Of a DNA stretch of 64,000 bases, positions 7,238 to 59,292 are shown piece by piece (position 1 is the stretch's first letter; every line of letters begins with the position of its first letter). The position numbers and the translations under genes were made by a program. This stretch comes from Mobula hypostoma (taxonomy: Eukaryota): assembly GCF_963921235.1 (NCBI RefSeq), contig NC_086097.1, positions 103,108,001 to 103,172,000 on the forward strand, given 5' to 3'. Under the pieces are notes generated by a model. It did not search any database. It saw nothing but the letters and a program-made list of their open reading frames with translations, and was not told where the DNA came from.

Positions 7238-8819
7238 CAGTTGAAAGAAAAAGTTTGTGAACCCTTTGCAATTACCTGGTTTTCTGCATTAATTACTCAT
7301 AAAATGTGGTTTTCATTTTGATTTTCATCTAAGTCACAATAATAGCAAACACAATCTGCCTAAACTAATACAACACAAACAACTATACTACTTCTCGTCA
7401 ATACTGAGTACGCCATTTAAACAATTGCATCCTAGGTTCAAAAAAGTATGTAAACCTCTGGGATAATGCCTTCTGCAAAAGCTTTTTGGAGTCAGGTGTT
7501 GCAGTCAATGAGATGAGATTGGAGGTGTGGGTTGTAGAGGTGCCCTGCCCAATGAAAAGGACACACAGTCAGGTTACTGACGGAGCCTGCATTTCTCGAG
7601 AATGAGCTGTTTATGTGCACTATGCCTCAATCAAAACAACTTTCAGAGGACCTTAGAAGAAGAATTGTCAGGATGCATGAAGCTGGAAAAGGCTGCAAAA
7701 ACATTTCTAAAGACCTGAGTGTTCATCAGTCCGCAGTAAGAGAAATTGTCTACAAAAGGAGGAAAATCAGTACTGTTGCTACTGTCCCGAGGAGTGGGCA
7801 TTCTGTGAAGTTGACACCAAGAGCACACCGTGCAGTGGTGAAGCAGGTGAAAGAGAACCCAAAGGTAACAGCAAAAGACCTGCAAAAATCTCTTGAACTT
7901 ACTGTTTATGTGTGCACTATAAGAAAAACACTGAACAACAATGGTGTTCATGGAAGGACACCACTGCTCTCCAAAAAACATTGCTGCACATCTCAAGTAT
8001 GCAAAAGACCACTTGGATGTTCCACAATTCTTCTGGGACAATGTTCTGTGGACAGATGAGACAAAAGTTGAACTTTTTGGCAGAGAAGCAAATTGCTATG
8101 TTTGGAGGAAAAAGGGCACTGCACACCAACACCAAAACCTCATCCTAACTGTGAAGCACGGTGGAAGGAGCATCATAGTTTGGGGTTACTTTGCTGTCTC
8201 AAGGCCTGGACAGCTTGCAATCATTGAGGGAACAATGAATTAAAAATTATACAGGAGAGTGTTAGGCCAGTGATTCACCACGTGAAGCTTAATAGAATTT
8301 AGATGATGCAACAAGACAATGATCTGAAACATGACAGTAAATCAACCACAGTATGGTTTAAAGGAGAAAATTCATGTTTTGGAATGACCAAGTCAGAGTG
8401 CAGGCCTTAACCCAATTTTGATGCTGTGGCTTGACCTGAAGAGGGTTGTCCATGCAAGGTATCCCAGAAATATTGATGATCTGAAACAGTTTTGTATTGA
8501 AGAATGGTCTCAAGTTCCTCTTCACTGTTATGCAAGTCTGATCAGCAGCTACAGGAAACATTTGGAGGAGGTTATTGCTGCTAAAGGAGGTTCTACCAGT
8601 TTTTAAATACAAGATTCACATTCTTTTCTCATCCTGGACTGTGAATGATTAGACAATGTGTTCAATAGAGACATGAAAAGTACAATTGTTTGTGTGTTAT
8701 TAGTTTAGGCAGATTGTGTTTGTCTATTATTGTGACAGATGAAGATGAGACCACATTTTATGAGTAATTAATGCAGAAAACCAGGCAACTGCAAAGGGTT
8801 CACAAACTTCTTGCAACTG
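7238..8819 (+). mobile_element. Tc1-family DNA transposon B (full length, defective)
   Basis: CAGTTGAAAGAAAAAGTTTGTGAACCCTTTGCA ... TGCAAAGGGTTCACAAACTTCTTGCAACTG|TA; frameshifted transposase 7622-8606 with WTDETKVELFG, QQDND, IAAKGGST. Confidence 0.95.
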
Positions 8820-10484: not shown

Positions 10485-11455
10485 TGCCAGCATAAGCCTC
10501 TGTATCCAGCACGTTATTCTCCATAACTTCCACCATCTCCAATGGGATCCTACCACTAAGCCTTCTGCACCCACGCCCCTACTTTCCACAGGGATTCTTC
10601 TCTGTGACTCCTTTGACTACTCGTCCCTCCCCACTAAGTTACCCCCTGCATGACAAGCATGACAAATGGTATACCTGCCCCTACACCCTCCCTCACCACC
10701 ATTCACAGTCCTTCCAGGTGAAGCAACAATTCACCTGTAAATCTGTCAAATTTTTCTCCGGTAGTTCTGGTGTGGTCTCTATATTGGTGAGACCCATCAC
10801 AGACCTTAACACTGTCTTGCCACAAAAGGCAGGACCTACCAGTGGCTACCTATTTCAATTCAGCTTCCCACTCCTATTTGAATGTGTCTGTCTGTGGCCA
10901 CCTCTAATACCATGATGAGGCCAAATTCAGATTGGAAGAGCAACACCTCATATTCTATCTGTATAGCCACCATCCTGATGGCATGAACATTAATTTCTCC
11001 AACCTTCAGTACTTTCTCCCCCCTCACTCGTATTTTCCATTTCGCATTCTGATTGTCCTCTCACCCCTTCTCTTCTTACCTGACAATCACCTCCCTCTGG
11101 TTTCCTTCTCCCTCCCTTTCTCTCCTTCCTCTCATCACATGATCTCTCCTATTAGTTTCTTTCTTTGTAGCTTATTACCTCTTCCAGCTATACCCTCCCA
11201 GCTTCTTACTATTCCTTCTCCCCCATGCACACACATTCCCCTCTCACCTAGTCTCACCTGCCAGCTGCATTTCTTTCCTTCTCCCTACCTTTTTATTATT
11301 GCTTCTGCCACTTCCTTTCCAGTCCTGATGAAGGGTCTGAGTCTGAAATATCAAGTGTTGTTCCCCTCCTTAGTTGCTACCTGATCTGCTGAGTTCCTCT
11401 AGCATTTTGTTTGTGCTGCTTAATATTTCCAGCCTCTGCAGAATCTCTTGTGTTT
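10485..11455 (+). mobile_element. Penelope-like element, decayed 3' part
   Basis: Homologous to 51375-52664 (SFQVK..FTC, EEQHLIF..L..PDGMNINFSN); pyrimidine-rich UTR; degenerate hammerhead; TTTCCAGCCTCTGCAG tail. Confidence 0.85.
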
Positions 11456-11724
11456 AACATAATGCTAATCCTTTGATTGGCCAATGTATTGTGCTCCTTT
11501 ATCAGATAGAATCATAAATCAGTTGATACAATAGGAAATGTTGCCTTTATTTATTTTGCTTAGAAAGCTTTAGTAAAGGTATGCCACTGTATTAGCATTT
11601 GACTCATTATAAATCTAGCTATGATTTTTAGTAGTCCAAATCTGTTGCAAAGTAGAATTGTTCTGTATTACTTCCTGTCTATTTTAGCATACTGGCATTA
11701 TTTTAACTTTTATTGATTTTTTAA

Positions 11725-11844
<120 letters not shown>

Positions 11845-12713
11845 TAATAAGCTGAAACACAAATCTGAGATGCATTCTGGTGCTAGAAGATTTTTATTTC
11901 CTTTTTGTTAATTATGTATGCACATAATTAAGGAAAAATATGTATATGTTTGACAGAGCATTGTTGTGAATAATTACATGGGTTCTTTTGTACAGGGACT
12001 AAATCTTTACCACTGGGTTTATATGTCTGCTGTGTCTATCATTATTACATTATCTTTAATTAGGTATAATTAAATATTTATGAGGCTGATACTTGTATAT
12101 ACAAGCTGGTATTATGTAATTTTTGAGTAAATCTGAAAACTCAAGATAGAGAACATAATTTAACTGATTAACTCAGCACAGGTTGGTGACTAAACCTTAC
12201 ACTGCACCGTTTAACTGAAACAGTTGTTTTCTGTAGATATGAAGATGGGGCAGTTTGTATTCAAGTAGATGCAATATGTAGTGAAACTGAGAGGAAGGAC
12301 AGGCAGATGATTGGGTCGGTGGTATGAGGTGAAGTGTAACATGGGACAAAATCAAAAAGGGTGATGAATACAGGACTGAAGTTGTTATATTCTGCAGTAT
12401 ACAGAATAAAGTAGATGATCTTTTAGTACAGTTAAAGATTAGCAGGTATGACATTGTGGGCATCACCGAATCGTAACGAAGAAGATCATAGACAAATCAT
12501 ATGCAGGTAGATTGAGAAAAATGGGTTGATGTTGAATCCCCAGAGAGAGAATTTGTAGAGGGCCTCTGAGTTGGCTTTCTAGAGCAGCTTGTGGTTGAGA
12601 CCATGAGGGAAAGGTAATTCTGGATTGGGTGTTGTGTAAAGGAACCCTTTATGGAATGAAGTAGATGATCTTGTAGCACAGTTAGAAATTGGCAAATACA
12701 ATATTGTGGGCAT

Positions 12714-14040
12714 GCTGAGCTTGTCAATTTCATCAACTTTGCTTCCAACTTCCACCCTGCCCTTAAGTTCACTTGGTTCATTTGTGACACCTCACTTCCC
12801 TTTCTCAATATCTCTGTCTCCATCTCTGAAAACAAACTGTCGACTGACGTCTTTCTTAAACCTACTAATTCCTACGGTTATCTTGGCTATACTTCCCACT
12901 CTGTCTCCTGTTTTTTTTTTAAAAGAAAGCTATTCCCATTTCTCAGTTCTTCATCTTTGCCATATTTGTTCCCAATATGCAGTTTTCCTTTCCAGGACAT
13001 CAGATATGTCCTTCTCCAAAGAGCGATGTTTCCCTTCCTCTACCATTGATGCTGCCTTCACTGGCTTCTCCATTTCCAAGACACATGCACTCACCCTATA
13101 TTCTCGCTGCCTTAACAGTCACGAGAGTTCCCCTACCACTCTATGAGCCTCCACATCCAACACATCATTCTCTACAGCTTCCACCATCTCCAATGAGATC
13201 TTACCACCAAACACAACTTCCCCCACCCACATCTCCGCTTCCTGCAGAGTTCGTTTTCTCCATGATTCCCTTGTCCATTCATCCCTCCCCGCTAATCTCC
13301 CTCCTGGTACTTATCCCTGCAAGCAGCCAAAGTGCTGCATCTGACTACTCACCTTCTCCCTCATCTTCATTCAGGACCCCATACAGTCCTTCCAGGTGAG
13401 TTAACTCTTCACCTGTGAATCTGCTGGGGTTATCTATTGTGTCTGGCACTCTTGGTGAGGACTCCTCTACATTAGTGAACCTGTCATAAATTGGGGGATC
13501 ACTTTGTTGAGCACCTCCACTCCAACCGCCAAAAGCAGAACTTCCCAGTGCCCGAACATTTTAATTCCGATTTCCCGTTCTGACACATCAGTCTAAAGCC
13601 TCCTCTTGTGCCACAATGAGGCCACTCTTAGAGTGGAGGAGCAACACCTTGTATTCCATCTGGATAGCCTCCAACGTGATGGCATGAATATCAATTTCTC
13701 TTTCCAGTAATAAGAAATTTTCCCTCCCCTTCCCTTCTTCTTTTCCCTACTCTGGCCTCTTTCTTCCTTGATCATCCCCTCCTGCTGGATCCCCTCCTCC
13801 TTCCCTTTCTCTTATATCCTCTCTTCTCTCCTATTAGATTCCTTCCTCTCCAACCCTTTACCTTTCCTACCCAGCTGGCTTCACCTATCACCTAGCTATA
13901 CTCCTTCCCCAAACCCCCACCTTTTTATTCTGGTGTCTTCCCCCTTCCTGTCCAGTCCTGAAGAAGGATCTCAGCCTAAAACATTTCCATCGATGCTGCC
14001 TGGCCTGCTGAGTTCCTCCAGCATTTTGTGTGTGTTGCTT
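12714..14040 (+). mobile_element. Penelope-like element (RT thumb, GIY-YIG and UTR; decayed)
   Basis: Homologous to 51375-52664; ends ctgctgagttcctccagcattttgtgtgtgttgc; the host CR1 (gaaccctt|ggaggcagtg) resumes at 14041. Confidence 0.88.
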
Positions 14041-29293: not shown

Positions 29294-31990
29294 CTCTCCC
29301 GCCACCAATAAAAGTCATGCCCTCATGACGTTAACAGGGTTCACCAGTGCTCCTTGTGAAACACAAAACCCAACCCAGGTGCATAAAGCAGTGACATAAC
29401 TTTCCAGGGCAGTAGAGATCACACCCTGTTCTCCCGGCACTGTATAAGTCAATCTCTCCTGGGGATGCCAACTCCTCCGAGGCCTCTGTACTTCCTCTGC
29501 TGACTCTCCCTGTTCAGACACCCCAGGTGACCCCCCAGACTTAACTGTCAGACCTTCACCCTCACCAGGACCCCTCAGCACCTGTGAGCCCTCTGGCTCG
29601 GGTTCTGCCTCCACCCTCTCCTCCCCCAATCCCGGCTGTAATACAGGCGGCTCTGCAACACCCTCCCTGGGTTCCCCTAACTCAGTGAGGGAAGGGCCAG
29701 GAGCCTCTTCTCCCGGCACCGGGGAATCAGCGAACGGAAACGGGTACCACACGTCTGAATCATCGTCTTCCGATGATGTATCCCTTTTCGGGGTGGGGAC
29801 TGGCCCCATCTCTTTCGCAGCGGGCTCTTCCCTCGCCCCGCGCCCTCGCAGAGTCCTCACACTAGGCGTAAACTCCCATTCGAGCTCTCGGTCTACCTGC
29901 ACCTCTCAACCCAGAGGCAACAGGTGGTTCTGATGGAGTACCTTGACAGACCCCTGCCCGCCCTCGGGTCTCACCTGGTAAACAGGGAGATTCAGCATCT
30001 GACTCTCCACCACATAGGGGGTGGCCGCCCAACGATCCGCCAACTTGTGCTTACCAGGTAGTCCTAAATTCTGGATAAGGACCCGGTCTCCCAGCAATAG
30101 CTGGACGAACTTTACTTTCTGATCATATCTCTTCTTATTCCGCTGATTCTGCTTGGTGGCTGCCGCCTCAGCCAACTCATATGCCCTTTTCAACTCTCTC
30201 CTCATATCAGACATATACTTCAGACATGGCTTCGAAGGTATTTCACCTACGTTTTGGGACTGAAGCAGATCAATGGGCAACCTCGCTTCCCATCCGAACA
30301 TCAGATAATAGGGCGAGTACCCGGTAGCATCATTGCGCGTGCAATTGTAACAGTGAACCAAATGGGCGATGTGCCAACTCCACTTACTCTTCTGCCCGAT
30401 CTCCAAAGTGCCGAGGATGTCCAGCAGGGTCCGGTTAAACCTCTCTGGCTGAGGATCACCCTGCGGGTGATAGGGGGTGGTCCTGGATTTCTCAACCCCA
30501 AGCATACCCAGTAATTCATGGAGAAGCCTGCTCTCGAAATCCCGTCCCTGATCACTATGGATCCGCCGGGGAAGGCCATAATGAACAAAGTACTTCTCCC
30601 ATAACACCTTCGCCACTGTAGTCGCTTTCTGGTCCTTAGTAGGAAAAGCCTGCGCATATCTAGTGTAGTGATCCGTGATGACCAAGACATTGGCGATGTT
30701 GCTGGTGTCTGGCTCAATAGACAGGAAATCCATACACACCAGGTCCAGGGGTCCCGCACTCTGCAAGTGGGAGAACGGGGCCGCCTGCGCAGGCAAGGTC
30801 TTCCTCCTGATGCAACAACTACAGGTCTTACAGTATTCTTCCACCTCCTTCCTCATCCGGGGCCAGTAAAACTGGTCCTTGACTAATCCACAGGTCTTCT
30901 CTACCTCTAAGTGCCCGGAATCATCATGTAGAGCCTGGAGCACAGTCTTCCGATACTTCTCAGGCATGACCAGCTGCCAGCGCCGGGGGTGGTCCGGGGG
31001 CGACGTGACCTGGTACAGGACGTGGTTCTTCAGCTTCAACCGGGGCCACTCCTTCAGTAGTAGGGGAACGGAGGCATGTTTCGCCTTCTCCACCTGCCCC
31101 ATATCACCCCGGCTAACTGCGTACCAGATAGTGCCAATGCTTGGGTCATCATGCTGAGCCGCCCCCACTTCCTGGGGACTCAACTCTGGCAGCTGCCTGT
31201 TCCGCAGAGCAGTCAAATTACAGTAAACAGTGGGTAGTGTATCATCATCAGCCCCCAATTGATCTACTGCCCGATCCATTCCCATCGGGGCTCCTACTTC
31301 CCCGTCGCTCCCAACTTGACACATGGCCTTTACTCCCGGGGCAGGGATACTTTTCCACTCCTCAGCTGTGCCTGACTCATCGTGCGCCCGACGAGATAGA
31401 GCATCTGCATCGATGTTCCGACTCCCTGGCCGGTACTTCAGGCTGAACTCATAGGCAGACAAGGCCGCTAACCACCAGTGCCCAGTAGGGTCCAGCTTTG
31501 CTGAGGTCAGGATATAAGTGAGGGGGTTGTTGTCAGTTTTCACCTCAAACTGGGCCCCGTATAGATAGTCACTCAACTTGTCCACCACCGCCCATTTCAA
31601 CGCCAAGAACTCCAGCTTGTGAGTGGGATAGTTTCCCTCAGATGGCGACAAACTCCGGCTGACAAATGCCACCGGCCTCAATCCGTTGCCCTGTTCCTGG
31701 TACAGGACAGCGCCCAGACCCTCGTGACTGGCATCAGTGTGTAGAACATACGGCTTCTGGGGATCAGCAAAAGCCAATACTGGGGCCTGAGTCAGCGCCC
31801 TTTTTAGAGATTGGAACGCATCCTCACATTGAGCATCCCACCTCGATCCAAAAGGCTCCCCTGGGTTCAAGTATCCTTCTACCTCCGGCCCTCGGTCTCC
31901 CTTCCTCTTCCTCCCCACAGGTGGATAACCACAGAACAGCTGGTTCAATGGGTGACTCATTTTCGCATATCCTTTCACGAATCGCCAATT
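28707..31990 (-). mobile_element. Ty3/Gypsy LTR retrotransposon, 5'-truncated (RNase H, integrase, C-terminal extension)
   Basis: 690-aa ORF: LHTDAS, YPTHKLEFLAL, TDNNPL, HDDSGH..CSCC zinc finger, MDF/SDQG/PERFN DDE; one in-frame TGA at 29906-29908 separates a 195-aa acidic tail. Confidence 0.95.
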
Positions 31991-32208
31991 ACCTGGGCTG
32001 CACTAGGAGGTTGTTGTGTCTTTAGCAGTTTTGGTGTAAAGCCCTAAGCCTTTTTATGGCATACCTTGAAAGTTATCTTTGTCATCAAAATTTTGGGCAG
32101 CTATTAAGATGTGTAACTAGATAGCATGATTTTGACTTTTATTTCATTGTTGTATCCATGAAACACCTTTTGGAGCTTTTAAATGCTCAAAAATGTGACC
32201 TATTGTAG

Positions 32209-32415
32209 AAACACACACCTGGGTGCTGGAGGAACTCAGCAGGCCAGGCAGCATCTATGGAAAAGGGTACAGTCGATGTTTTGGGCCGAGACCCTTCACC
32301 TTTCGGCCCAAAATTTGGACTCTACTGTTTCCCATAGATGCTGCCTGCTGAGTTCCTCCAGCATTTTGTGTGTGTTACTTGGACTTCCAGCATCTGCAGA
32401 AATTCTGTTGTTTGT
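32209..32415. mobile_element. Palindromic head-to-head Penelope terminal repeat
   Basis: tgctggaggaactcagcagg..gcagcatctatgg..ttttgggccga [13-nt loop] tcggcccaaaa..ccatagatgctgc..cctgctgagttcctccagca. Confidence 0.85.
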
Positions 32416-40554: not shown

Positions 40555-43500
40555 GGGGACTTCCGGTAGCGCTCATGGAGTGAAGTCGCGTTCTTGACTT
40601 GCTCCATTACCTCTGAGTTTTTTTTTTATGATCAGCCATATTTTAACTAACCATTAAGGCATCGACTTTTACAATACTTTGAAACAAATTGGGCTCTTCG
40701 ATAATTGGATGCGTTTAAGGTCTGCTATGTCTAAAAATGGAAAAAATGGGAAAGACGGCAAACCTCCGGTTAGACCAAAAGGTACCGATTTCCCTCCGAC
40801 TGAACCACCGGTGACTTTGAAAGCTATATCGGATTTAATTCAAAGGGAAATTTCAACCTCTATTACGGAACTGATTCGTTCGGAAATTTCAATTAATTTC
40901 CAGAAAATTGCCGATTTAATCGATAAAATACAATTATCTATTACGGAACATCAGTCGGCTATATCTAATCTTCAAAAATCCACGCAACAAAATGAACTCA
41001 AGGTGGGGAAAATTGAAGAAACAATTACTATAATGAAGAAAAAACTTGAGCTTCTGACCTTTAAAAACTCAGACTTAGAATCCAGAATGCGACAGCAGAA
41101 TCTTCGAATGATTGGCGTGCGTGAAACTGTGGAACCTGACAACCCTATGAAGTTTTTTTTCTCAACTTTTAAAAGATGCATTTCCTACTGTATTTCCTGA
41201 CCAACCACCGTTATTGGATCGGGCTCACAGAGTTCCATCATACTCGTCTAAGTCAGATAAACCTCGACATGTCATCTTACATTTTCATTACTTTCAAGAC
41301 AAGGAGAAACTGTTTCGATTCGTTCGATCTAAAGGTTACATTGATTTTTCGGATCTTAATTTCTGATTCGTGGAGGATTTCAGTAAACCAATTCGGGATC
41401 AACGGGTTCGTTACAGATCTGTGATGTCGGAACTCTACAAGATGGTTTTAAAACCAGCGCTGCTTTACCCAGCACGTCTAAGGATTCGTACGTTGGATGG
41501 AGCCCTCCGTTTTTTTGAATCTCCATTGGATGCCCAGAGTTATCTGGGTCAATTTTCACCTTCAACATCTTAATCGTAATTTTTAACTATCTCTGTTTGA
41601 TCGGAGGTTGTGAATCTGTCGGCCTTAATTTTTTTTTTGCCTTATATGGGCAGAAAAGTTTATTTTTGATTAATTAATATGGCTGCTAAACTTCCTTTCT
41701 ATCTGCGTCATTCCTTTCTTTTTCCCAGGGGATTCTGGGTGGTTATTCCCTCAACATCATTCTACCTATTTCCTTTGAGGCCTTAAATTTTGTAGTTTTT
41801 AAATCTACTTTTTTTGTAGGTTTTCATAGCTAGTTTCTGTTAATATTTTCATTTCTTTTTTTGTTTATTCATAGGGTCTGGGGTTTGTTGCGGTTTTTTT
41901 ATATTTTCTGGCTTTTTCTTTGTTATGTTAAGTGTTTGTTTTAATTGATTTACTTTTTTTATTACTGTTTTATAACTAGCTGATCTTTTTTATATTTACA
42001 CTTTTTTTTAGGGAGCGTCTATCGGAAGTCATGGGGGTAGTTTTAGTGCTTACTTCTTTCTGGCTGGTCTGTTTTAGATTTAGCCTTGGGGTCATGGGGT
42101 GGTGGGTGGGGCTTCACGTTTTAGTTTCTTTCTTCTTGGGCTATGTACACTATTGAAGTATTGGTTGCGTTCTCCTTCCCGGTATCTCTTATTTGTTCTG
42201 TTCCCTTTCTGGGTTTGTGGGTCGAGCCTATCGTCAATCCTCCTTTTTGCGGGTTGACTTTAGGGTTTATGGAGTCTATTATTAATTTTGTCTCCTGGAA
42301 TACTAGTGGTCTTAACCATCCTGTTAAAAGGAAAAAAGTTCCGGAGACTTAAAGCACAAATTCTATTTTTACAAGAGACCCATGTGCGGAGGGGGGACAG
42401 ACTACGTTTTTTTAAATTCTGGAAGGGAAAACAGTTTCATTCGGACTCTAACGCTAAGATTCGAGGCGTCTCTATTTTTATAGACTCCTCAGTTACTTTT
42501 ATACAACATGATATTACCTCTGATCCGAATGATAGATTTCTACTGGTTAGTGGTCTACTATTTAATAAAAAGGTAGTTTTGGTTAATGTTTATGCTCTCA
42601 ATATGGACTATCTGGAATTTTATAAATCATTACTCAATCAGTTTCCGAATTTGAATGAGTTTTCATTGATCTGGGGCGGAGATCTTAATACCTATTTATC
42701 TCCAGCTTTGGACCGTTCGGCTCCTCTACTGACCTTACCTAATAAATCTGCAACTTTGATTAATTCATTCCTCTCTGATTCTGGGTCGACGGACATTTGG
42801 CGTTTTATGCATCCTCAGGAAAAAGATTTTTCTTTTTTTTCACATGTTCACCATTCCTATTCAAGAATTGATTATTTCTTTATTGACTCTCGTCTTATTT
42901 CTTCAGTGATTAAATGTGATTATGACTCTATAACCATTTCGGATCATGCTCCACTTAAGCTTTCTATTAAAATTCAGGCCAATACACAAAATAATAGACA
43001 ATGGCGTTTTAATTCGATGTTGCTTCAGGATTCGGACTTTGTTAAATTTATGAATGAACAGATTGATCTTTTCTTTACAATCAACTACACAGAGGATATT
43101 TCTGTGAACATTCTTTGGGATACTTTTAAAGCTTATATTCGTGGTCAGATTATCTCGTATTCTGCTGCTTTGAGGAAGAAGCTGAAGCAGGAGGAGTTGG
43201 TAATTGTGGGCAAGATTAAGGAAATTGATAAGAAATATGTTACAGCTCCCTCTGAGGAGTTATATAAATAAAGAACTGAACTTCAAATGGAACACAGTTT
43301 ATTACTTTCGTCCTCGATTGTAAACCAATTAAAGAAAACAAGAAGTGAATTTTATGTACACAGTGACAAAATTAGCAAACTGTTGGCTAACCAATTGAAG
43401 TCTAATTATGCTAAATCTCAAATTAATCAGATTTATAATCAAAATGATCGACTGATACTTGATCATGCGGGGATTAATCAAACCTTCTTTGATTTTTATT

Positions 43501-46500
43501 CTTCCTTATATCAATCAGAGTCTCCTCGAGACTCTAAATATATGAATGATTTTTTAGATAACCTAGACTTCCCTGAGATTTCACAGGATATGTCTTCTAT
43601 GCTAGATACTCCCATTACCACTGATGAGATTAAGAATGTTATTTCCTCTATGAACCTGGGGAAAGCTCCTGGCCCTGATGGGTTTACCGCTGAATTTTAT
43701 AAATGTTTTGCACCTTCATTAATCCCTTGGTTCTGTAGGGTTTTCGAGGCTTCATTAAAACCTGGTAAACTTCCCAAATCTTTCAATAGAGCGTCAATCT
43801 CTCTAATATTAAAGAAGGATAAAGATCCTGCTCAATGTGCATCTTATAGACCAATATCTTTATTAAATGTTGATTCTAAAATTTTTTCTAAGTTATTAGC
43901 AAACAGATTAGAAAAATTACTTGCTTTTATTATTTCGGAAGACCAAATGGGTTTTATTAAAGTTACTCTTTTTATAACATTCGCACACTGTTAAATATTG
44001 TTATACCCCCTCACAAAATGTTCCTGAGTGTGTTATCTCTTTATCAAAAGCTTTCTCAGCATCTAGAGTAGAATGGCCTTACTTATTTAAGGTGCTTGAA
44101 ATGTTTAATTTTAGCTCGACGTTTATATCCTGGATCAAACTGTTATATCATTCTCCTGTGGCCTCGGTCCGTACTAACTCTTTAAGCTCACCTTTTTTCC
44201 CTCCTTTTCGAGGTACTCAACAAGGTTGTCCTCTTAGTCCTTTATTATTTGATATTGCATTAGAACCTCTTGCAATTGCCATTCGAGAATCTCCAAATAT
44301 TACTGGGATAACTCGGGGCTTAAAGTCCCATAAAATATCACTCTATGCTGATGACTTACTTTTATATATTTCTAATCCTCAGAAATCCATCCCTGCTGTT
44401 TTAGAGTTATTAGCACAATTTGGTCTTTTTTCAGGTTCTAAATTAAATCTTAGTAAGAGTGAACTTTTCCCGATTAATAAACAACTTCTCTTATATCATA
44501 ACTTACTGTTTAAATTGATTAATAATTATTTTTCATATCTTGGGATTAAAATTACTTGTAAACACAAAGATTTATTTAAGATTAACTTTTTACCCTTAGT
44601 TGACCATATTATTCAACTTTCATCTAAATGGTTTCCTTTATATTTAACTTTGATTGGTCGTATTAATGCAGTTAAGATGTTTTTTCTGCCAAAATTTTTA
44701 TATATATTGCAGGCATTACCGATTTTTGTTCCAAAATCTTTTTTTGATAAAGTTGACTCAAAAATTTCTTCATTTATTTGGCAAAATAAAAACCTGAGAC
44801 TGGGTAAAATACATTTACAGAAAGCTAAGAGAGATGGAGGTTTAGCATTACCTAACTTTAGATTCTATCATTGGGCAATTAATATTCGACATATGAAATT
44901 TTGGTTACTTGACCAGGATATGCTATCCATTCCCAAATGGGTAGCATTGGAATTACAATCTGTTCAGGGCTATACACTTGGCTCTATTTTAGGTTCCTCT
45001 CTTCCTTTTGATTTGAAACGCCTCAAACAGGTATCTAACCCGATAGTTAAATATACCTTACGTATTTGGTTTCAATTCAGAAAATTTTTTGATCTTAACC
45101 AATTTGGGCTAGCGATTCCTATTTTAGGTAACATATTTTTTCCTCCCTCTTTTACGGATCGTGCTTTTCAAATTTGGAAGACTAAGGGTATTTCACGGTT
45201 TTTGGATTTATTTTTAGATGGTTCCCTTATGTCTTTTGAACAATTATCTAATAAATATAATTTATCAAGAATACATTTTTTTTAGATATCTGCAAGTTAG
45301 AAATTTCCTAAGTACTATACTTTCTTCCTTTCCAATACTTCCTCCTACATACATTTTAGATACTATAGTTAACCTTAACCCATGTCAGAAAGGTGCATCG
45401 GCTATGATTTATAATATTATTATGAAACTTAGGAAAGTTCCATTTGATAAGATTAGGGTAGGTTGGGAACAGGAATTAGGTTCTATCATTTCCGTGGATG
45501 ACTGGGGGCAGATTTTACAATTAGTCAATACTTCCTCTATCTGTGCTAAACATTCCCTAATTCAATTTAAAGTTGTTCATAGAGCACATATGTCCAAAGA
45601 TAAATTAGCTCGCTTTTATTCTCATATTAATCCTTTTTGTGATAGATATCCGGGGCAGATAGCCTCTTTAACCCATATGTTTTGGTCTTGTCCTACTCTG
45701 GAAACTTTTTGGAGAGGCATTTTTAATATTATCTCAAAGGTATTGAATATAGATAGCTCTCCGCACCCTATTACTGCTATCTTTGGACTACCTAAAATTT
45801 CCAGTAATCTTTCTCCTTCAGCCCGTAGAATAATTGTATTTCTTACTTTAACGGCGAAAAGATGTATCTCACATCATTGGAAAGAGCTTAATGCTCCAAC
45901 CACCTTTTTTTTGGTTCTCTCAGACGATATTATGCTTGAATTTGGAGAAAATTAGAAGTAATCTTTATGATTCCTCACTTAAATTTGAACATACCTGGAG
46001 ATCTTTTATTCAATATTTTCATTTAATGTAAATTTTTTTTCTCTTTTTTGCTCCATATTTATATACCCTTCTTGTTTTTTTTACTGTTTTTAATGGAGGT
46101 CGGGTTTGAGGACATGATTTTAAGTTCTTTAACTCTACTTGGTTCCAAGTTAGCCCATTGCTTTGCTTTGCTTTTAGTTAGTTGCACGGTGGGTTTTTTT
46201 TGGGGTTTTTTTTTCCTTTTCTCTATTGATATATATATATCTATATATATATATCTATATCTATATATATCTATATATATCTATATCTATATCTATATAT
46301 ATCTATATCTATATCTATATATATAAAAATTAGTATACTATTATGTTACCTTAGTATGTTATGTTTAAATTACATTGTTTGTATCACTTTTTTTCTGTAT
46401 TAATATCTCCTGTAATTTTATTATATTCTAACAGTGTATTAGTGCCTATATGGCTTACCTTTTTGTATACTTATTCAATAAAAAGATTTAAAAAGAAAGA
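40555..46500 (+). mobile_element. Full-length L1-clade LINE, copy 1 (inactive)
   Basis: 16-bp TSD AAAAGACTACAAACTG (40539-40554 / 46501-46516); ORF1 from ATG 40727; ORF2 from about 42269 (SWNT.GL, LQETH, YADD, HMFWSC); AATAAA at 46477; several stops and frameshifts. Confidence 0.96.
46228..46325. repeat. (TA)n/(TCTATA)n compound microsatellite in the L1 3' UTR
   Basis: Longer than the short (TA)n at about 51195-51211 in the sister copy. Confidence 0.9.
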
Positions 46501-50100: not shown

Positions 50101-51374
50101 GTACCATCAGCTGATGACACAACGGATTTATAAAAGCGGTTTTGAACCCAAGGGATGTCATTAGGTTTAAGATGTGTTTCCTGTAACAGCGCGATATCTA
50201 TTTTCTTTCGGCGTAAGAAATCTAAAACCTTTGAACGCTTGTAGGGAGAGTTTAATCCTCTAATATTAAATGATACAATAGTAAGATTTTCTGATTTATC
50301 TGTGTTGCTCATCTTCCCCTGGATCTATTGTTGTAAGTTGGTGGTGGAGCCCTGAGTTACCCCCTTCCCACCCTCCTCCCATCACCCCTTGCATATAACC
50401 CTTTGCTTTGTAACATCTGTGAGTGTCACTTAGCAATGTCAGACACTGAACAATAACCGCCCCCCCACCCCCAACACCAACAAATTAGAAAGGCAAAGCG
50501 GTTCTCACAGACGATCATATCAAAGAGACAAGAAAAAAAAACCTGGTCAAACCTGTTAACCTATATAATTAAAACCATTCCATCTCAAATATAATATAAC
50601 ACATAATCAAGACCCCAACGGCTGTCTTGCGAGAGACTGTTGCTTTAATAGACCGTCGCTTAGCGATGGCGCCAGTGACATCTTATCTGGAGCCCAGGAA
50701 CGTAAACAAGTCTACAGGAGACATAACCCGAAATGAACATGTACAACTAAAGTTATTCAGAACAAACTGCTGTTTTTCAGCTTCATTCTTGATAAACTAT
50801 GACATTTGGGTGTATTGAATATCACCTTACAATGTAAAAGATAAGTATATTCTAGGCAGACTTGTATCACCTTACCATGTTACCCTTGTATGAGCAAGTT
50901 AACTGAGCCGTTACCTTAAAACTCTGACCTGCAATACTCGGAAACAAATTGGCCCTTAATTAACTAAATACAAAAGTGTATCAAATGACTTTCCAATAAA
51001 AGGATAACCAGAAAACTTTACACCTTTCTTTTTAAATCTTTTTATTGAATAAGTATACAAAAAGGTAAGCCATATAGGCACTAATACACTGTTAGAATAT
51101 AATAAAATTACAGAAGATATTAATACAAAAAAATACTACAAACAATGTAATTTAAACATAACGTACCAAGGTAACATAATAGTATACCAATTTTTATATA
51201 TATATATATATCAATAGAGAAAAGGAAAAAAAAAAACCCCCAAAAAAAACCCACCGTGCAACTAACTAAAAGCAAAGCAAAGCAATGGGCCAACTTGAAA
51301 CCAAATAGAGTTAAAAAACTTAAAATCACGTCCTCAATTCCGACCTCCATTAAAAACAGTAAAAAAAAAGCAAG

Positions 51375-52664
51375 CAACACATATCAAAGTTGCTGGTGAA
51401 CGCAGCAGGCCAGGCAGCATCTATAGGAAGAGGCGCAGTCGACGTTTCAGGCCAAGACCCTTCGTCAGGACTAACTGAAGGAAGAGTGAGTAAGGGATTT
51501 GAAAGCTGGAGGGGGAGATGCAAAATGATAGGAGAAGACAGGAGGGGGAGAGATAGAGCCGAGAGCTGGACAGGTGATAGGCAAAAGGGGATACGAGAGG
51601 ATCATGGGACAGGAGGTCCGGGAAGAAAGACAAGGGGGGGGGGTGACCCAGAGGATGGGCAAGAGGTATATTCAGAGGGACAGAGGGAGAAAAAGGAGAG
51701 TGAGAGAAAGAATGTGTGCATAAAAATGAGTAACAGCTGGGGTACGAGGGGGAGGTGGGGCCTAGCGGAAGTTAGAGAAGTCAATGTTCATGCTAACAGG
51801 TTGGAGGCTACCCAGACGGCATATAAGGTGTTGTTCCTCCAACCTGAGTGTGGCTTCATCCTTACAGTAGAGGAGGCCGTGGATAGACATGTCAGAATGG
51901 GAATGGGATGTGGAATTAAAATGTGTGGCCACTGGGAGATCCTGCTTTCTCTGGCGGACAGAGCGTAGATGTTCAGCAAAGCGGTCTCCCAGTCTGCGTC
52001 GGGTCTCACCAATATATAAAAGGCCACATCGGGAGCACCGGACGCAGTATATCACCCCTGTCGACTCACAGGTGAAGTGATGCCTCACCTGGAAGGACTG
52101 TTTGGGGCCCTGAATGGTGGTAAGGGAGGAAGTGTAAGGGCATGTGTAGCACTTGTTCCGCTTACACGGATAAGTGCCAGGAGGGAGATCAGTGGGGAGG
52201 GATGGGGGGGACGAATGGACAAGGGAGTTGTGTAGGGAGCGATCCCTGCGGAATGCAGAGAGAGGCGGGGAGGGAAAGATGTGCTTAGTGGTGGGATCCC
52301 GTTGGAGGTGGCGGAAGTTATGGAGAATAATATGTTGGACCCGGAGGCTGGTGGGGTGGTAGGTGAGGACCAGGGGAACCCTATTCCTAGTGGGGTGGTG
52401 GGAGGATGGAGTGAGAGCAGATGTACGTGAAATGGGGGAGATGCGTTTAAGAGCAGAGTTGATAGTGGAGGAAGGGAAGCCCCTTTCTTTAAAAAATGAA
52501 GACATCTCCCTCGTCCTAGAATGAAAAGCCTCATCCTGAGAGCAAATGCGGCGGAGACGGAGGAATTGCGAGAAGGGGATGGCATTTTTGCAAGAGACAG
52601 GGTGAGAAGAGGAATAGTCCAGATAGCTGTGAGAGTCAGTAGGCTTATAGTAGACATCAGTGGA
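51375..52664 (-). mobile_element. Young 5'-truncated Penelope-like element in the 3' UTR of L1 copy 2
   Basis: 15-bp TSD TAAAAAAAAAGCAAG (51360-51374 / 52665-52679); open ORF to 51762 with GIY-YIG motif GVIYCVRCSRCGLLYIGET..RFAEH. Confidence 0.95.
51436..51473 (-). ncRNA. Minimal type I hammerhead ribozyme
   Basis: UAGUC-CUGACGA-AGGGUCUUGGCCU-GAAA-C-GUC^GACUG: complete core, stem I UAGUC/GACUG, stem II AGG/CCU, palindromic ACGU in place of stem III. Confidence 0.85.
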
Positions 52665-55600
52665 TAAAAAAAAAGCAAGAAGGGTATATATTACATTAAA
52701 TGAAAATATTGAATAAAAGATCTCCAGGTCTGTTCAAATTTAAATGAGGAGTCATAGAGATTGCTTCTAATTTTATCCAAATTCAAGCATAATATCGCCT
52801 GAGAAAACCAAAAAAAGGTATATGGAGCATTGAGCTCTTTCCAATGTTGTAAGATACATCTTTTCGCCATTAAAGTAAGAAATGCAATCAATCTATGGGC
52901 TGAAGGGGAAAGGTTACTGGAAATTTTAGGTAGTCCAAAGATAGCAGTAATAGGGTGAGGAGAGATATCTATATTCAATACCTTGGAGATAATATTAAAA
53001 ATGTCTCTCCAAAATGTTTCCAGAGTAGGGCAAGACCAAAACATATGAGTTAAAGAGGCTAGCTGCCCCGGACATCTATCACAAAAAGGATTAATATGAG
53101 AATAAAAGCGCGCTAATTTATCTTTGGACATATGTGCTCTATGAACAACTTTAAATTGAATTAGGGAATGTTTAGCACAGATAGAGGAAGTATTGACTAA
53201 TTGTAAAATCTGCCCCCAGTCATCCACGGAAATGATAAACCCCAATTCCTGTTCCCAATCTACCCTAATCTTATCAAATGGAGCTTTCCTAAGTTTCATA
53301 ATAATATTATAAATCATAGCCGATGCACCTTTCTGACATGGATTAAGGTTAATTATAGTATCTAAAATGTATGTAGGAGGAAGCATTGGAAAGGAAGAAG
53401 GTATAGTACTTAGGAAATTTCTAACTTGTAGATATCTAAAAAAATGTATTCTTGATAAGTTATATTTATTAGATAATTGTTCAAAAGACATAAGGGAACC
53501 ATCTAAAAATAAATCCAAAAACCGTGAAATACCCTTAGTCTTCCAAATTTGAAAAGCACGATCCGTAAAAGAGGGAGGAAAAAATATGTTACCTAAAATA
53601 GGAATCGCTAACCCAAATTGATTAAGATCAAAAAATTTTCTGAATTGAAACCAAATACGTAAGGTATATTTAACTATCGGGTTAGATACCTGTTTAAGGC
53701 GTTTCAAATCAAAAGGAAGAGAGGAACCTAAAATAGAGCCAAGTGTATAACCCTGAACAGATTGTAATTCCAATGCTACCCATTTAGGAATGGATAGTAT
53801 ATCCTGGTCAAGTAACCAGAATTTCATATGTCGAATATTAATTGCCCAATAATAAAATCTAAAGTTAGGTAATGCTAAGCCTCCATCTCTCTTAGCTTTC
53901 TGTAAATGTATTTTACCCAGTCTCGGGTTTTTATTTTGCCAAATAAATGAAGAAATTGTAGAGTCGACTTTGTCAAAAAAAAGATTTTGGAACAAAGATT
54001 GGTAATGCCTGAAATATATATAAAAATTTTGGCAAAAAAAATCTTAACTGCATTAATACGACCAATCAAAGTTAAATATAAAGGAAACCATTTAGATGAA
54101 AGTTGAATAATATGGTCAACTAAGGGTAAAAAGTTAATCTTAAATAAATCTTTGTGTTTACAAGTAATTTTAATCCCAAGATATGAAAAATAATTATTAA
54201 TCAATTTAAACAGTAAGTTATGATATAAGAGAAGTTGTTTATTAATCGGGAAAAGTTCACTCTTACTAAGATTTAATTTATAACCTGAAAAAAGACCAAA
54301 TTGTGCTAATAACTCTAAAACAGCCGGGATGGATTTTTGGGGATTAGAAATATATAAAAGTAAGTCATCAGCATAGAGTGATATTTTATGGGACTTTAAG
54401 CCCCGAGTTATCCCAGTAATATTTGGAGATTCTCGAATGGCAATTGCAAGAGGTTCTAATGCAATATCAAATAATAAAGGACTAAGAGGACAACTTTGTC
54501 GAGTACCTCAAAAAAGAGGGAAAAAAGGTGAACTTAAAGAGTTAGTACGGACCGAGGCCACAGGAGAATGATATAACAGTTTAATCCAGGATATAAATTT
54601 CGAGCTAAAGTTAAACATTTCAAGCACCTTAGATAAATAAGGCCATTCTACTCTATCAAAAGCTTTCTCAGCATCTAAAGAGATAACACACTCAGGAACA
54701 TTTTGTGAGGGAGTATAAACAATATTTAACAGTGTGCGAATATTATAAAAAGAGTTACGACCTTTAATAAAACCCGTTTGGTCTTCCGAAATAATAGAAG
54801 GAAGTACTTTTTCTAATCTATTTGCTAATAACTTAGAAAAAACTTTAGAATCAACATTTAATAAAGATATTGGTCTATAAGATGCACATTGAGCAGGATC
54901 TTTATCCTTCTTTAATATTAGAGAAATTCACGCTCTATTGAAAGATTCAGGAAGTTTACCAAGTTTTAATGAAGCCTCAAAACCCCTACAGAACCAAGGG
55001 ATTAATGAAGGAGCGAAACATTTATAAAATTCTACGGTAAACCCATCATGGCCAGGAGCTTTCCCCAAATTCATAGAGAAAATAACATTCTTAATCTCAT
55101 CCGTGATAATGGGAGTATCTAACATAGAAGACATATCCTGTGAAATCTCAGGGAAGTCTAGATTATCTAAAAAATCATCATATATTTAGAATCTCGAGGA
55201 GACTCTGATTGATATAAGGAAGAATAAAAATCAAAGAAGGTTTGATTAATCCCCACATGATCAAGTATCAGTCGGTCATTTTGGTTATAAATCTGATTAA
55301 TTTGAGATTTAGCATAATTAGACTTCAGTTGATTAGCCAACAGTTTGCCAATTTTGTCACTGTGTACATAAAATTCACTTCTTGTTTTCTTTAATTGGTT
55401 TACAATCGAGGACGAAAGTAATAAACTGTGTTCCATTTGAAGTTCAGTTCTTTGTTTATATAACTCCTCAGAAGGAGCTATAACATATTTCTTATCAATT
55501 TCCTTAATCTTGTCCACAATTACCAACTCCTCCTGCTTCAGCTTCTTCCTCAAAGCAGCAGAATACGAGATAATCTGACCACGAATATAAGCTTTAAAAG

Positions 55601-57178
55601 TGTCCCAAAGAATGTTGACAGAAATATCCTCTGTATAGTTAATTGTAAAAAAAAGATCAATCTGTTCATTCATAAAGTTAACAAAGTCCGAGTCCTGAAG
55701 CAACAGCGAATTAAAACGCCATTGTCTATTATTTTGTATATTGGCCAGAATTTTAATAGAAAGCTTAAGTGGAGCATGATCCGAAATGGTTATAGAGTCA
55801 TAATCACATTTAATCACTGAAGAAATAAGACGAGAATCAATAAAGAAATAATCAATTCTTGAATAGGAATGGTGAACATGTGGAAAAAAAAGAAAAATCT
55901 TTTTCCTGAGGATGCAAAAAACGCCAAATGTCCGTCGACCCAGAATCAGAAAGGAATGAATTAATCAAAGTTGCAGATTTATTAGGTAAGGTCTGTAGAG
56001 GAGCCGAACGGTCCAAAGCTGGCGATAAATAGGTATTAAGATCTCCGCCCCAGATCAATGAAAACTCATTCAAATTCGGAAACTGATTAAATAATGATTT
56101 ATAAAATTCCGGACAGTCCATATTAGGAGCATAAACATTAACCAAAACTATTTTTTTATTAAATAGTAAACCACTAACCAATAGAAATCTACCATTCGGA
56201 TCAGAAATAATACCATGTTATATAAAAGTAACTGAGGACTCTATAAAAATAGAGACGCCTCGAATCTTCGCATTGGAGTTCGAATGAAACTGTTTTCCCC
56301 TCCAGAATTTAAAAAAACGTAGTCTGTCCCCCCTCCGCACATGGGTCTCTTGTAAAACTAAAATTTGTGCTTTAAATCTCTGGAACACTTTAAAAACTTT
56401 TTTCCTTTTAATAGGATGATTAAGACCATTAGTATTCCAGGAGACAAAATTAATAATAGACTCCATAAACCCTAAAGTCAACCCGCAACAAGGAGGATTG
56501 ACGATAGGCTCGACCCACGAACCCAGAAAGGGAACAGAACACACAAGAGATACCGGGAAGAAGAACGCAACCAATACTTCAATAATGTACATAGCCCAAG
56601 AAGAAAGAAACTAAAACGTGAAGCCCCTCCCACCACCCACCACCCCATGACTCCAAGGCTAAATCTAACGCAGACCAGCCCGAAAGAAGCAAGCACTAAA
56701 ACTACCCCCTTGACTTCTGGTATACGCTCCCTAAACAAAAGTGTAAATATAAAAAAGATCAGCTGATTATAAAACAGTAAAAGAGTTAAAAAAAAGATAA
56801 CTCAATTAAAATAAACACATAATATAACAGAATAAAAGCCAGAAAATATAAAAAACCGCAATAAACCCCAGACCCATGAGTAAACAAAACAAAAAAAATG
56901 AGATTATTAACATAAACTAGTTATAAAAACCTACAAAACAAAATAGATTTAAAAAAACTACAAAATTTAAGGCCACAAAGGAAATACATAAAATGACAAT
57001 GGGGAAATAACCACCCAGAATCCCCTGGGAAAAAGAAAGAAATGACGCAGTTAAAAAGAAAGTTTAGCAATCATATTAAATAATCAAAAATAAACTTTTC
57101 TGCCCATATAGGGCAAAAAAAAATTAAGACCGACAAATTCACAACCTCCGATCAACGGAGATAGTTAAAAAATTACGA

Positions 57179-57988
57179 TTAAGATGTTGAAGGTGAAAAT
57201 TGATCCAGATAACTCTGGGCATCCGATGGAGATTCTAAAAAACGGAGGGCTCCATCCAACGTACGAATCCTTAAACGTGCAGGGTAAAGCAGCGCTGGTT
57301 TTAAATCCATCTTGTAGAGTTCCGACATCACAGATCTGTAACGAACCCGTTGATCCCAGATTGGTTTACTGAAATCCTCCACGAATCGGAACTTAAGATC
57401 CAGAAAATCAATGTAACCTTTAGATCGAACGAAACGAAACAGTTTCTCCTTGTCTTGAAAGTAATGAAAACATAAAATGACATGTCTAGGTTTATCTGAC
57501 CTAGGCGAGTATGATGGAACTCTGTGAACACGATCCAATAATGGTGGTTGGTCAGGAAATACAGTGGGAAATGCATCTTTTAAAAGTTGAGAAAAATACT
57601 TCATAGGGTTATCGGATTCAACAGCTTCACACACCCCTATCATTCGAAGATTCTGCCATCGCATTCTGGATTCTAAGTCAGAGTTTTTAAAGGTCAGAAA
57701 GTCGAATTTCTTCTTCATTACATTAATTGTTTCTTCGATTTTCTCCATCTTGAGCTCACTTTGTTGTGTGGATTTTTGAAGATCAGATATAGCCGACTGA
57801 TGTTCCGTAATAGATATTTGTATCTTCTGGATTGAATCGGCAATTTTCTGGAAACTAGTTGAAATTTCCTCACGAATTAGCTCCGATATAGCTTTCAAAG
57901 TCACCGGTGGTTCAGTCGGAGGGAAATCGGTACCTTTCGGTCTAACCGGAGGTTTGCCGTCCTTCCCGTTTTTTCCATTCTTAGACAT
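57179..57988 (-). CDS. Intact L1 ORF1p (coiled coil, RRM, CTD; 269 aa)
   Basis: Open from MSKNGK to stop; NLRMIGV RRM start, DRVHRV, EDFS, LYPARL motifs. Confidence 0.8.
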   Translation of the reverse strand: MSKNGKNGKDGKPPVRPKGTDFPPTEPPVTLKAISELIREEISTSFQKIADSIQKIQISITEHQSAISDLQKSTQQSELKMEKIEETINVMKKKFDFLTFKNSDLESRMRWQNLRMIGVCEAVESDNPMKYFSQLLKDAFPTVFPDQPPLLDRVHRVPSYSPRSDKPRHVILCFHYFQDKEKLFRFVRSKGYIDFLDLKFRFVEDFSKPIWDQRVRYRSVMSELYKMDLKPALLYPARLRIRTLDGALRFLESPSDAQSYLDQFSPSTS

Positions 57989-59292
57989 AGCAGACCTTAA
58001 ACGCATCCAATTATCGAAGAGCCCAATTTGTTTCAACGTATTGTAAAAGTTGATGCCTTAATGGTTAATTAAAATATAGCTGATCATAAGAAGAAAAACT
58101 CAGAGGTAATGGAGCGAGTCAAGAACGCGACTTCACTCCATGAGCGCTACCGGAAGTCCCCAGAAAAAGCTTTACACCTAGGACGTTAACTTGCCAATGC
58201 CTGTTAGATTGAGCATACAGACTGGTCTGAGCTCTTAACGCACTTCCATCTCCTCCCAAGGGGCGTGTGGACTTTGCCCAGGGTCTTCTTCCATACCTCG
58301 CAGCACTGATGATTTCAGCACTTCATCGGCCAAGTTGACATCTTCATGCCCTTGATATTCACTCTCAAAATCGCCGGGTATATGAGGAACGAGTGAATCC
58401 CCTTCTGTTGAAGCTTAGCGTGGATTTTCTTGTGTCCCTGCCGTTCTTGCATCGTGCCGGGGATGTAGTCGGCGAAGAACTGCAGCTGGGTGCCATCAGG
58501 GAGAGTAGGTTTGGCTTTCCTCGAGCCTCCAGAATAGCCTGCCGGTCGGTGTACCCTAGAAGCCTAAAAACCATGTCCGCGGTTTTGAGGTGTTGTTGGA
58601 AAAGATCCTGTGTGCTCTATCGATCTCCAATGGAGTGCTGTGGGAATTCTTGAGCACTGGAATCCAATTAGGCAGCATCTTCTGGAGGGTAACCTCTTGG
58701 ATCGTCGCCCTCAGTGTCTGTCGGTAAGTTGACCAGCCGCACGTTATTTTTCCTGGATCTGTCCTGCAAGTCATTTAGCTTCTTCCGTATCTTAATCACC
58801 TCCGCGAGACAGGAGTTAGTAATTTTCTCATTCTTGCATAAGCTAACCTGAATGTTGTCTATTTTGTTGAATACCGTGCTAAATTTTTAGCATGAATGTC
58901 CGCTTGCTCCTTTAACGACCGGAGAATGTTGCCATTCTGTGCCATATAATTCTGTATGGGGTTGAGAGCCTTTTCCAGCGACTCCTTTAGCGTGTGGGCT
59001 ACCGTTTCTTGCAGCGATTCCATCTCCGTTGCCATTGTTTGCTTAATTAGCATAGCTATTTCCTCGGATGAATCGCTAGCTTGGTGTTGTCTGCTGATAT
59101 CTTGTTTCTTGGTTGAATTTGGATCTTTTTTTGAGGTCATGTCTTTAGTTAGATCTTTCTCCAAATCAACCTTGTATTAAGACAGTCTATGAGCCCTAAA
59201 GAATGTGAAAAAGGAGGGTTATATGTCAGCGCTCAGTGCTGTGCTGCCATCTTGCCTCGTGCCTCACTGGAAGTCCCTCGATACTAATTTTT

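What the first reader, a model, noticed from the sequence alone, without database searches (positions are those of the whole stretch)
51436..51473. Intact minimal hammerhead ribozyme in a young Penelope element
Seen: the minus strand reads UAGUC CUGACGA AGGGUCUUGGCCU GAAA C GUC GACUG. All core nucleotides are present, stem I is 5 bp, stem II is short, and there is no intramolecular stem III, only the palindrome ACGU. It lies about 290 nt past the GIY-YIG ORF stop and about 60 nt from the element end. Established: PLE terminal repeats carry minimal type I hammerheads that are proposed to work as dimers. Inference: this copy can cleave after GUC (between 51441 and 51440) and helps define RNA ends for this family. 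The class is known; this family instance may be unannotated.
Basis: partly seen in the sequence, partly recalled or inferred. Interest (0 to 1): 0.7.

Follow-up and report, generated by a model that had tools for sequence, protein, structure and literature searches.

The report
Known Penelope-type hammerhead in dead copy
The 38 bases really are the small "dimer-type" self-cutting RNA motif that Penelope-like jumping genes are already known to carry, here in a truncated, dead copy in a ray-like fish genome, where it probably does nothing.

Summary
Bases 51473-51436 (minus strand) fit the published minimal-hammerhead descriptor of Penelope-like elements (PLEs). It is the only such site in 64 kb; chance gives about 0.006 per window. 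It lies 289 nt past the stop of a Neptune/Nematis-type GIY-YIG ORF. The element is a 1290-bp, 5'-truncated insertion with a perfect 15-bp target-site duplication, inside the 3' UTR of a broken L1. The host is ray-like. The functional inference is weaker. The copy ends 66-70 nt past the intact scissile bond, at an end shared with two other copies, so its template was uncut or religated; the 3' end was more likely set by internal priming of reverse transcription. It has no tandem partner, a 4-bp stem II with two G·U pairs, and predicted folds that bury the core. Covariation could not be shown. The class was described in 2014 (including a Neptune element). I found no paper naming this ray family. 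This scan has already noted such motifs many times in this same genome and in sharks. Verdict: new member of a known kind, low interest.

The parts
51436..51473 (-). Minimal type I hammerhead motif (no intramolecular stem III); predicted cut between 51441 and 51440
   Evidence: only hit of the published descriptor in the window
51462..51468 (-). Core box C3-A9 with N7 = C; extra unpaired A at 51461 between positions 9 and 10.1
   Evidence: register
51449..51460 (-). Stem II, 4 bp (G10.1·U11.1, G-C, G-C, U·G) with 4-nt loop
   Evidence: U at 11.1 is shared with much of the family
51441..51448 (-). G12-A14, palindromic A15.1-C-G-U16.1, C17
51457..51487 (-). Predicted competing hairpin: upstream pyrimidine tract pairs with the first core box and the 5' side of stem II
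   Evidence: prediction only; z-scores of these folds are not significant
51375..51435 (-). Downstream pLTR segment; the copy ends at the 'short' end, without the ~35-nt optional tail seen in 3 of 6 window copies
   Evidence: loose ends at 51371
51474..51761 (-). Pyrimidine-rich part of the pLTR / 3' UTR between ORF stop and hammerhead
51762..52664 (-). PLE ORF remnant, 300 codons without a stop: end of RT region, C-x4-C-x2-C linker, GIY-YIG endonuclease; RT core missing
51375..52664 (-). Whole 5'-truncated PLE insertion, 1290 bp
52665..52679 (-). Target-site duplication, 5' copy (15 bp, T-rich)
51360..51374 (-). Target-site duplication, 3' copy; its first 4 nt also match the family's continuation (microhomology)
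51024..58161 (-). Host L1 copy (broken ORF2) whose 3' UTR received the insertion; paralog 40555-46499 (+) shows the empty site

Best explanation
The motif is the standard minimal hammerhead of a PLE pseudo-LTR, inherited passively by a dead insertion. Shown: the motif, its position downstream of a PLE GIY-YIG ORF, the 5' truncation, the TSD and the host L1. Inferred mechanism of the insertion: a PLE protein from an intact element nicked T/A-rich DNA in the L1 3' UTR. The target's 3' end (4-nt match to the RNA) primed reverse transcription at an internal site 66-70 nt downstream of the scissile bond. The RT copied through the uncut hammerhead and stopped after 1290 nt. Inferred role in the family: in tandem, full-length elements the motif cleaves weakly after GUC, only when two copies pair through their ACGU palindromes and probably with the element's protein helping, to process long precursor RNA. 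It is not what sets the 3' end of insertions. At this locus (single copy, weak stem II, competing folds) it is most likely silent.
For: Descriptor match and chance control. Same position downstream of the ORF in two older window relics, with the first core box intact in both. A zebra-shark gene model reads from the homologous ORF through a hammerhead-like stretch (P0007). Exact insertion limits from the L1 paralog. 3 of 6 window copies stop at the same short end and 3 of 6 carry ~35 nt more, matching the optional 30-40-bp PLE tail (PMC8557442, passages) that PMC11167929 ties to two RT start sites. Energies (nearest-neighbour, without tertiary contacts): open monomer -7.0, rod that pairs the core -11.0 kcal/mol; with >= 27 nt of upstream sequence, stems I and II have probability <= 0.02. 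Double hammerhead -11.5 against -22.0 for two rods and -32.1 for the dimer minimum. Literature: monomer inactive, dimer weak; protein-assisted and dispensable for insertion in vitro; 1 of 9 Xenopus retrozyme dimers cleaved (bioRxiv 10.64898/2026.07.22.740005).
Against: All core nucleotides are intact in this copy, and none of the 40 listed variant sites falls in the 13 core positions (about 1 expected, so not significant; 59 sites hidden). G·U at 10.1/11.1 and C7 occur in published min-HHRs (8 of 56 and 6 of 56 rows of Fig. S3, my count by eye), so they do not mark decay. Folding predictions ignore Mg2+, tertiary contacts and proteins. Transcription of this locus was not tested. The PLE biochemistry cited is from a Poseidon element, not a Neptune one. 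A religated or circular template would also leave the scissile bond intact.
Confidence: 0.82

Rival explanations
1. Active ribozyme that defines family RNA ends: cleavage of tandem precursors gives unit RNAs that are religated or circularised, and copies such as this one come from the religated template. This copy could itself cleave in trans with any of the many family transcripts through the ACGU palindrome and stem I exchange.
For: Intact core and palindrome. The family is very abundant: 131,350 Logan contigs of run X1 were laid on the 561-bp stretch, so partners could be plentiful. This model is proposed in PMC4209133. An earlier AI note (e1-7790562, unchecked) reports an insertion starting at the cut site.
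Against: Neither end of this insertion is at the cut site. The active dimer is predicted 10-20 kcal/mol above competing folds. No RNA ends at the cut site were found for the anole element.
Confidence: 0.12
2. The motif is kept for a role other than cleavage (part of the protein-binding / RT-initiation signal, or tied to a splice acceptor just upstream), and catalysis is vestigial in this clade.
For: The segment downstream of the motif is as well conserved as the motif in two old relics (tail identity 0.73 and 0.84 against 0.79 and 0.66 for the motif). Contig depth peaks over motif plus tail. A pyrimidine tract and CAG/UAG precede stem I, and the Drosophila virilis PLE intron ends at helix I.
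Against: Exact core letters are retained across animal PLEs. Core mutants abolish cleavage in the anole element and a compensatory pair partly rescues it. No splice-type joint at this site among the 15 joints shown (79 hidden).
Confidence: 0.05
3. Chance match to a short consensus.
For: No compensatory covariation among 6 window copies (0 of 9 pairs). Fold z-score only -1.38. No Rfam hit.
Against: 0.006 hits per shuffled window. It sits at exactly the position expected in a PLE. Its architecture is nearly the same as the Acropora Neptune motif in Fig. S3.
Confidence: 0.01

Closest known systems
Minimal hammerheads (min-HHR) in pLTRs of metazoan PLEs (Cervera & De la Peña 2014, PMC4209133; parts 1-2 of 4 of the text and supplement file 2 read)
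   Same: Core boxes, 5-bp helix I, extra nucleotide between 9 and 10.1, no helix III, palindromic 15.1-16.1, position at the 3' pLTR of a 5'-truncated copy. The Acropora digitifera Neptune motif has the same C7, extra A, 4-bp helix II and CGUC.
   Different: No cartilaginous fish among the 56 motifs of Fig. S3. Helix II is at the short end of the range and closes with G·U (as in 8 of 56 rows) instead of the consensus G-C.
Poseidon element of Anolis carolinensis (PAc) hammerhead (Frangieh et al. 2024, PMC11167929; parts 1-2 of 4 read)
   Same: Hammerhead in the pLTR upstream of the insertion end; two end classes (optional tail); AT-rich target.
   Different: Different PLE clade (this one has the C-x4-C-x2-C linker). 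In PAc the ORF starts in stem II, whereas no AUG lies there in this copy. Here the end is 66-70 nt past the cut and shows a 4-nt match to the target, whereas PAc initiation was reported as non-homologous.
Neptune / Nematis clades of endonuclease-containing PLEs (Craig et al. 2021, PMC8557442; passages read)
   Same: C-terminal GIY-YIG, CX2-5CxxC linker, pLTR with hammerhead, optional 30-40-bp tail, inverted truncated partner copies.
   Different: Clade not placed by RT phylogeny; the RT core is missing from this copy.
Non-LTR retrozymes (Li, Clavereau & Pollet 2026, bioRxiv 10.64898/2026.07.22.740005; parts 1 and 3 of 5 and passages read)
   Same: Type I hammerhead derived from PLE pLTRs; reported in the one chondrichthyan sampled.
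   Different: This is a single copy attached to ORF sequence, not a tandem non-coding array.

Membership tests
PLE minimal hammerhead (min-HHR) | Core boxes CUGANGA and GAAANNUH | tested here: met
PLE minimal hammerhead (min-HHR) | Helix I 3-7 bp, helix II 3-7 bp with 3-10 nt loop (G·U allowed) | tested here: met
   5 bp and 4 bp + 4 nt; descriptor read, applied
PLE minimal hammerhead (min-HHR) | [quoted passage not shown] | tested here: met
   A51461; register probability 0.96 against 0.02
PLE minimal hammerhead (min-HHR) | G10.1 paired with 11.1 (descriptor allows G·U; consensus is G-C) | tested here: met
   G·U here, not the consensus G-C; G·U in 8 of 56 published motifs (counted by eye)
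PLE minimal hammerhead (min-HHR) | No helix III; palindromic 15.1-16.1 | tested here: met
   ACGU at 51445-51442
PLE minimal hammerhead (min-HHR) | Located in the pLTR of a PLE | tested here: met
   289 nt after the GIY-YIG ORF stop, inside the TSD-bounded insertion
PLE minimal hammerhead (min-HHR) | Compensatory covariation / core conserved over flanks across copies | tested here: inconclusive
   0 of 9 pairs with a two-sided change in 6 decayed copies; 0 of 40 listed variant sites in the core, about 1 expected, 59 hidden
PLE minimal hammerhead (min-HHR) | Self-cleavage after position 17, as a dimer | not testable with these tools
   needs in vitro assay; folding predictions are unfavourable
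Neptune/Nematis-type PLE | CX2-5CxxC linker between RT and endonuclease | tested here: met
   C-x4-C-x2-C in the translation; feature
Neptune/Nematis-type PLE | C-terminal GIY-YIG endonuclease downstream of RT in one ORF | tested here: met
   Pfam GIY-YIG E 1.7e-4, 22.2 bits, just under the 22.6 cut-off; longer homologs carry RVT_1 + GIY-YIG
Neptune clade specifically | Placement by RT phylogeny | not tested
Non-LTR retrozyme | Tandem non-coding units each with a hammerhead | tested here: not met
   single motif, attached to ORF sequence

The most novel reading that the evidence does not exclude
This ray Neptune-type subfamily carries a built-in 'off' fold. C7 lets the core pair with the CGUC strand, the upstream pyrimidine tract pairs with the first core box, and U11.1 weakens stem II. 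The hammerhead would then be a protein-triggered switch that stays uncut until the element's protein has bound and primed reverse transcription 66-70 nt downstream, using a 4-nt match to the target. With very many copies and two end classes, the family would let the order of priming and cleavage be read from genomic insertion ends.
Probability: 0.12. Interest if true: 0.5.

Novelty: new member of a known kind. Interest (0 to 1): 0.15.

Why it matters
The kind is known, and this copy adds no new chemistry. Its modest value is as a clean, TSD-bounded example showing that a PLE was copied from a template with an intact hammerhead and that its 3' end falls at a tail site, as the anole Poseidon biochemistry predicts, now in a Neptune-type element. 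What PLE hammerheads do in vivo is still open (PMC8557442). This abundant ray family would be a good place to test it genome-wide, but a single dead copy cannot.

Tried and rejected
Whole-genome family alignment: no genome is held for this window. Pattern search in metagenome contigs: 0 matches. Pattern search in viral contigs: 1 match, unrelated phage-like coding sequence by inspection. The search for related loci in metagenomes: 110 candidate stretches, none confirmed. Rfam: 4 and 3 sub-threshold unrelated hits, no hammerhead. Expression: no RNA holder listed; X9 is only guessed to be RNA and is used neither for nor against expression. Raw-read run X21 laid 2 reads and was uninformative. My first idea that U11.1 is a private CpG decay was rejected: C is only 19%, 15% and 29% of summed contig depth in X1, X9 and X5 (depth is not copy number), and G·U occurs in 3 of 5 informative window copies. 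C remains common: 4 of 5 informative read-through units in ray and shark gene models imply C (P0225 twice, P0227, P0007; P0226 implies U; inferred from amino acids). The A-U register of stem II was rejected. L1-mediated insertion of an antisense RNA was considered because the TSD is an A-run on the + strand. I rejected it as less likely because the end coincides with the short end of two other PLE copies. Splicing at the acceptor-like site: no supporting joint among 15 shown, 79 hidden; open. A structured tail downstream of the motif: z-scores 0.76, -0.31, -1.76 and -0.73 in 4 copies, not supported. The 'kissing' dimer string printed had the wrong topology and was replaced. Host gene: Pfam on 118 of 131 frames >= 85 aa gave only transposon-type domains; short exons would be missed. 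Lünse, Weinberg & Breaker (RNA Biol 14:1499) is not held; I saw only its title and a review's account. Literature searches for a chondrichthyan description: 'hammerhead ribozyme + Penelope + shark' gave 1 review, not opened; 'ribozyme + Penelope + cartilaginous fish' 0; 'Penelope + Mobula + transposable element' 0; 'Penelope-like + hammerhead + elasmobranch' 0. Repbase and Dfam were not available. Supplements of the 2026 preprint (closed) and file 1 of PMC4209133 (not searched) may bear on whether this family is already listed.

Full report
Observation. It has a 5-bp stem I (outer pair U·G), the core box C3-A9 with C at position 7, an extra A, a 4-bp stem II, G12-A14, the palindrome ACGU and C17 at 51441. 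I read the RNAmotif descriptor of Cervera & De la Peña in their supplement and rewrote it as a script. It finds one site in the 64-kb window, this one, and 3 sites in 500 order-3 Markov windows, none with stems as long. A looser descriptor gave 4 sites in 150 windows. Rfam has no matching model. The motif is real and not chance.

Anatomy of the element. The window holds two L1 copies in inverted orientation, 40555-46499 (+) and 58161-51024 (-). They are 92.6% identical and both have broken ORFs. The second carries an insertion in its 3' UTR that the first lacks. The insertion is 52664-51375 (1290 bp), bounded by a perfect 15-bp T-rich duplication at 52679-52665 and 51374-51360. It holds 300 codons without a stop: the end of an RT region, a C-x4-C-x2-C linker and a GIY-YIG domain (Pfam E 1.7e-4, just under the curated cut-off). 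It aligns to residues 505-801 of an 803-aa homolog with RVT_1 and GIY-YIG domains, so about 500 codons with the RT core are missing and the copy was dead on arrival. The closest proteins are from Mobula hypostoma (93%), Hypanus sabinus (mostly 75-86%) and sharks (60-68%), then corals and echinoderms (about 45-52%); the host is a ray-like fish. The linker marks the Neptune and Nematis clades (PMC8557442, passages). I did not place it by phylogeny.

Age. For relative youth: open frame, perfect TSD, CpG o/e 0.52 against 0.31 and 0.16 in the two older PLE relics of the window. Against being fresh: the copy differs from the depth-majority letter of run X1 at 13 of the 40 variant sites listed (59 hidden) over about 526 nt, 5 of them where over 90% of depth differs.

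Family context. Five older related copies lie in the window. Two follow ORF relics at the same position as here. None of the five passes the descriptor. Three of the six copies, the focal one included, stop at the same short end, and three run about 35 nt further. Contigs of three runs also continue past 51371 with family sequence. This is the optional 30-40-bp PLE tail, which PMC11167929 assigns to two internal RT start sites. The first 4 nt of the TSD match the family's continuation, a possible priming microhomology. The family is very abundant: 131,350, 9,776 and 108,466 contigs of runs X1, X9 and X5 were laid on 561 bp (not a copy number). Within the motif only two sites are among the 40 listed variants: position 11.1 (C in 19%, 15%, 29% of depth) and a loop II site where this copy has the minority letter. 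No listed site is in the 13 core positions, but only about 1 was expected, so the test has no power. Pair counts on the six window copies show no two-sided change in 9 pairs. Read-through gene models from Mobula, Hypanus and Stegostoma keep residues consistent with an intact core (inferred from amino acids, 5 proteins found by similarity, so biased).

Can this copy cleave? Not testable here. Against: it has no tandem partner. In the isolated 38-mer the predicted minimum is a rod that pairs G5-G8 with the CGUC strand (-11.0 against -7.0 kcal/mol for the open form). With 27 nt or more of upstream sequence, stems I and II fall to probability 0.02 or less because a pyrimidine tract pairs with the core. 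The double hammerhead scores -11.5 against -22.0 for two rods and -32.1 for the dimer minimum. These are nearest-neighbour energies without tertiary contacts. Published behaviour of the class is similar: no monomer cleavage and low dimer cleavage, cleavage only with protein in the anole element, and 1 of 9 Xenopus retrozyme dimers active. For: the core is intact, and G·U at 10.1/11.1 and C7 occur in 8 and 6 of the 56 published motifs (counted by eye), so neither marks decay.

Does it define RNA ends? Not for this copy. Reverse transcription started 66-70 nt downstream of the scissile bond and passed through it, so the template was uncut or religated. The 5' end is an ordinary truncation in the RT region. 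This agrees with PMC11167929, where ribozyme mutants inserted normally and no RNA ends were found at the cut site. A role in 5'-end formation or circularisation for tandem master elements is not excluded.

Comparison and novelty. It meets every sequence feature of the PLE min-HHR that I could test; cleavage and covariation remain open. The 2014 paper already lists a Neptune element from Acropora with nearly the same architecture, and 5'-truncated PLEs with a single 3' motif. No cartilaginous fish is in its alignment. A 2026 preprint reports hammerhead retrozymes in one chondrichthyan. Four searches found no paper naming this family, but repeat libraries and some supplements were not available. 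This scan's notes hold 31 hammerhead look-ups in this genome. Seven of the 8 shown describe PLE hammerheads of this kind, and further notes come from shark genomes (AI notes, not used as support).

Verdict. Observation confirmed; interpretation partly supported; new member of a known kind; interest 0.15. The most novel reading not excluded is a protein-triggered 'off by default' hammerhead whose timing relative to priming could be read from insertion ends (probability about 0.12).

Noticed in passing
window 32224-32305 (-) / 32306-32400 (+): Head-to-head inverted pair of PLE 3' ends whose junction lies inside the hammerhead region; the ~35-nt tail is present on one side only, as drawn for PLE insertions in PMC8557442.
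   Followed up: partly
window 40555-46499 (+) and 51024-58161 (-): Two L1 copies, 92.6% identical, in inverted orientation 4.5 kb apart; both have stops or frameshifts in ORF2.
   Followed up: partly
window 51490-51470 (-): Branch-point-like letters, a pyrimidine tract and CAG/UAG end at the 5' arm of stem I, resembling the Drosophila virilis PLE intron end at helix I; no splice joint seen among those shown.
   Followed up: partly
proteins P0224, P0226, P0227, P0003, P0008, P0223: Pieces of this PLE family (pLTR with hammerhead, or ORF) appear inside ray gene models for host genes (STARD3NL, Tim8 A, TNFRSF5-like, DIPK1C, CHID1, an NLR); exonisation or annotation artefact, not checked.
   Followed up: no
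protein P0225 (Hypanus sabinus gene model): Repeated read-through of hammerhead-plus-tail units in several frames suggests a tandem, retrozyme-like array at that locus.
   Followed up: no
window 10495-11460 (+) and 12705-14040 (+): Two older, decayed 5'-truncated PLE relics of related subfamilies, about 70% identical to the focal copy, with damaged hammerheads.
   Followed up: partly
window 29909-32002 (-): 698-codon open frame with RNase H-like and integrase domains: an LTR-retrotransposon pol fragment in a GC-richer stretch.
   Followed up: no
window 4115-4669 (+) and 7556-8056 (+): Tc1/Sleeping Beauty-type transposase fragments.
   Followed up: no
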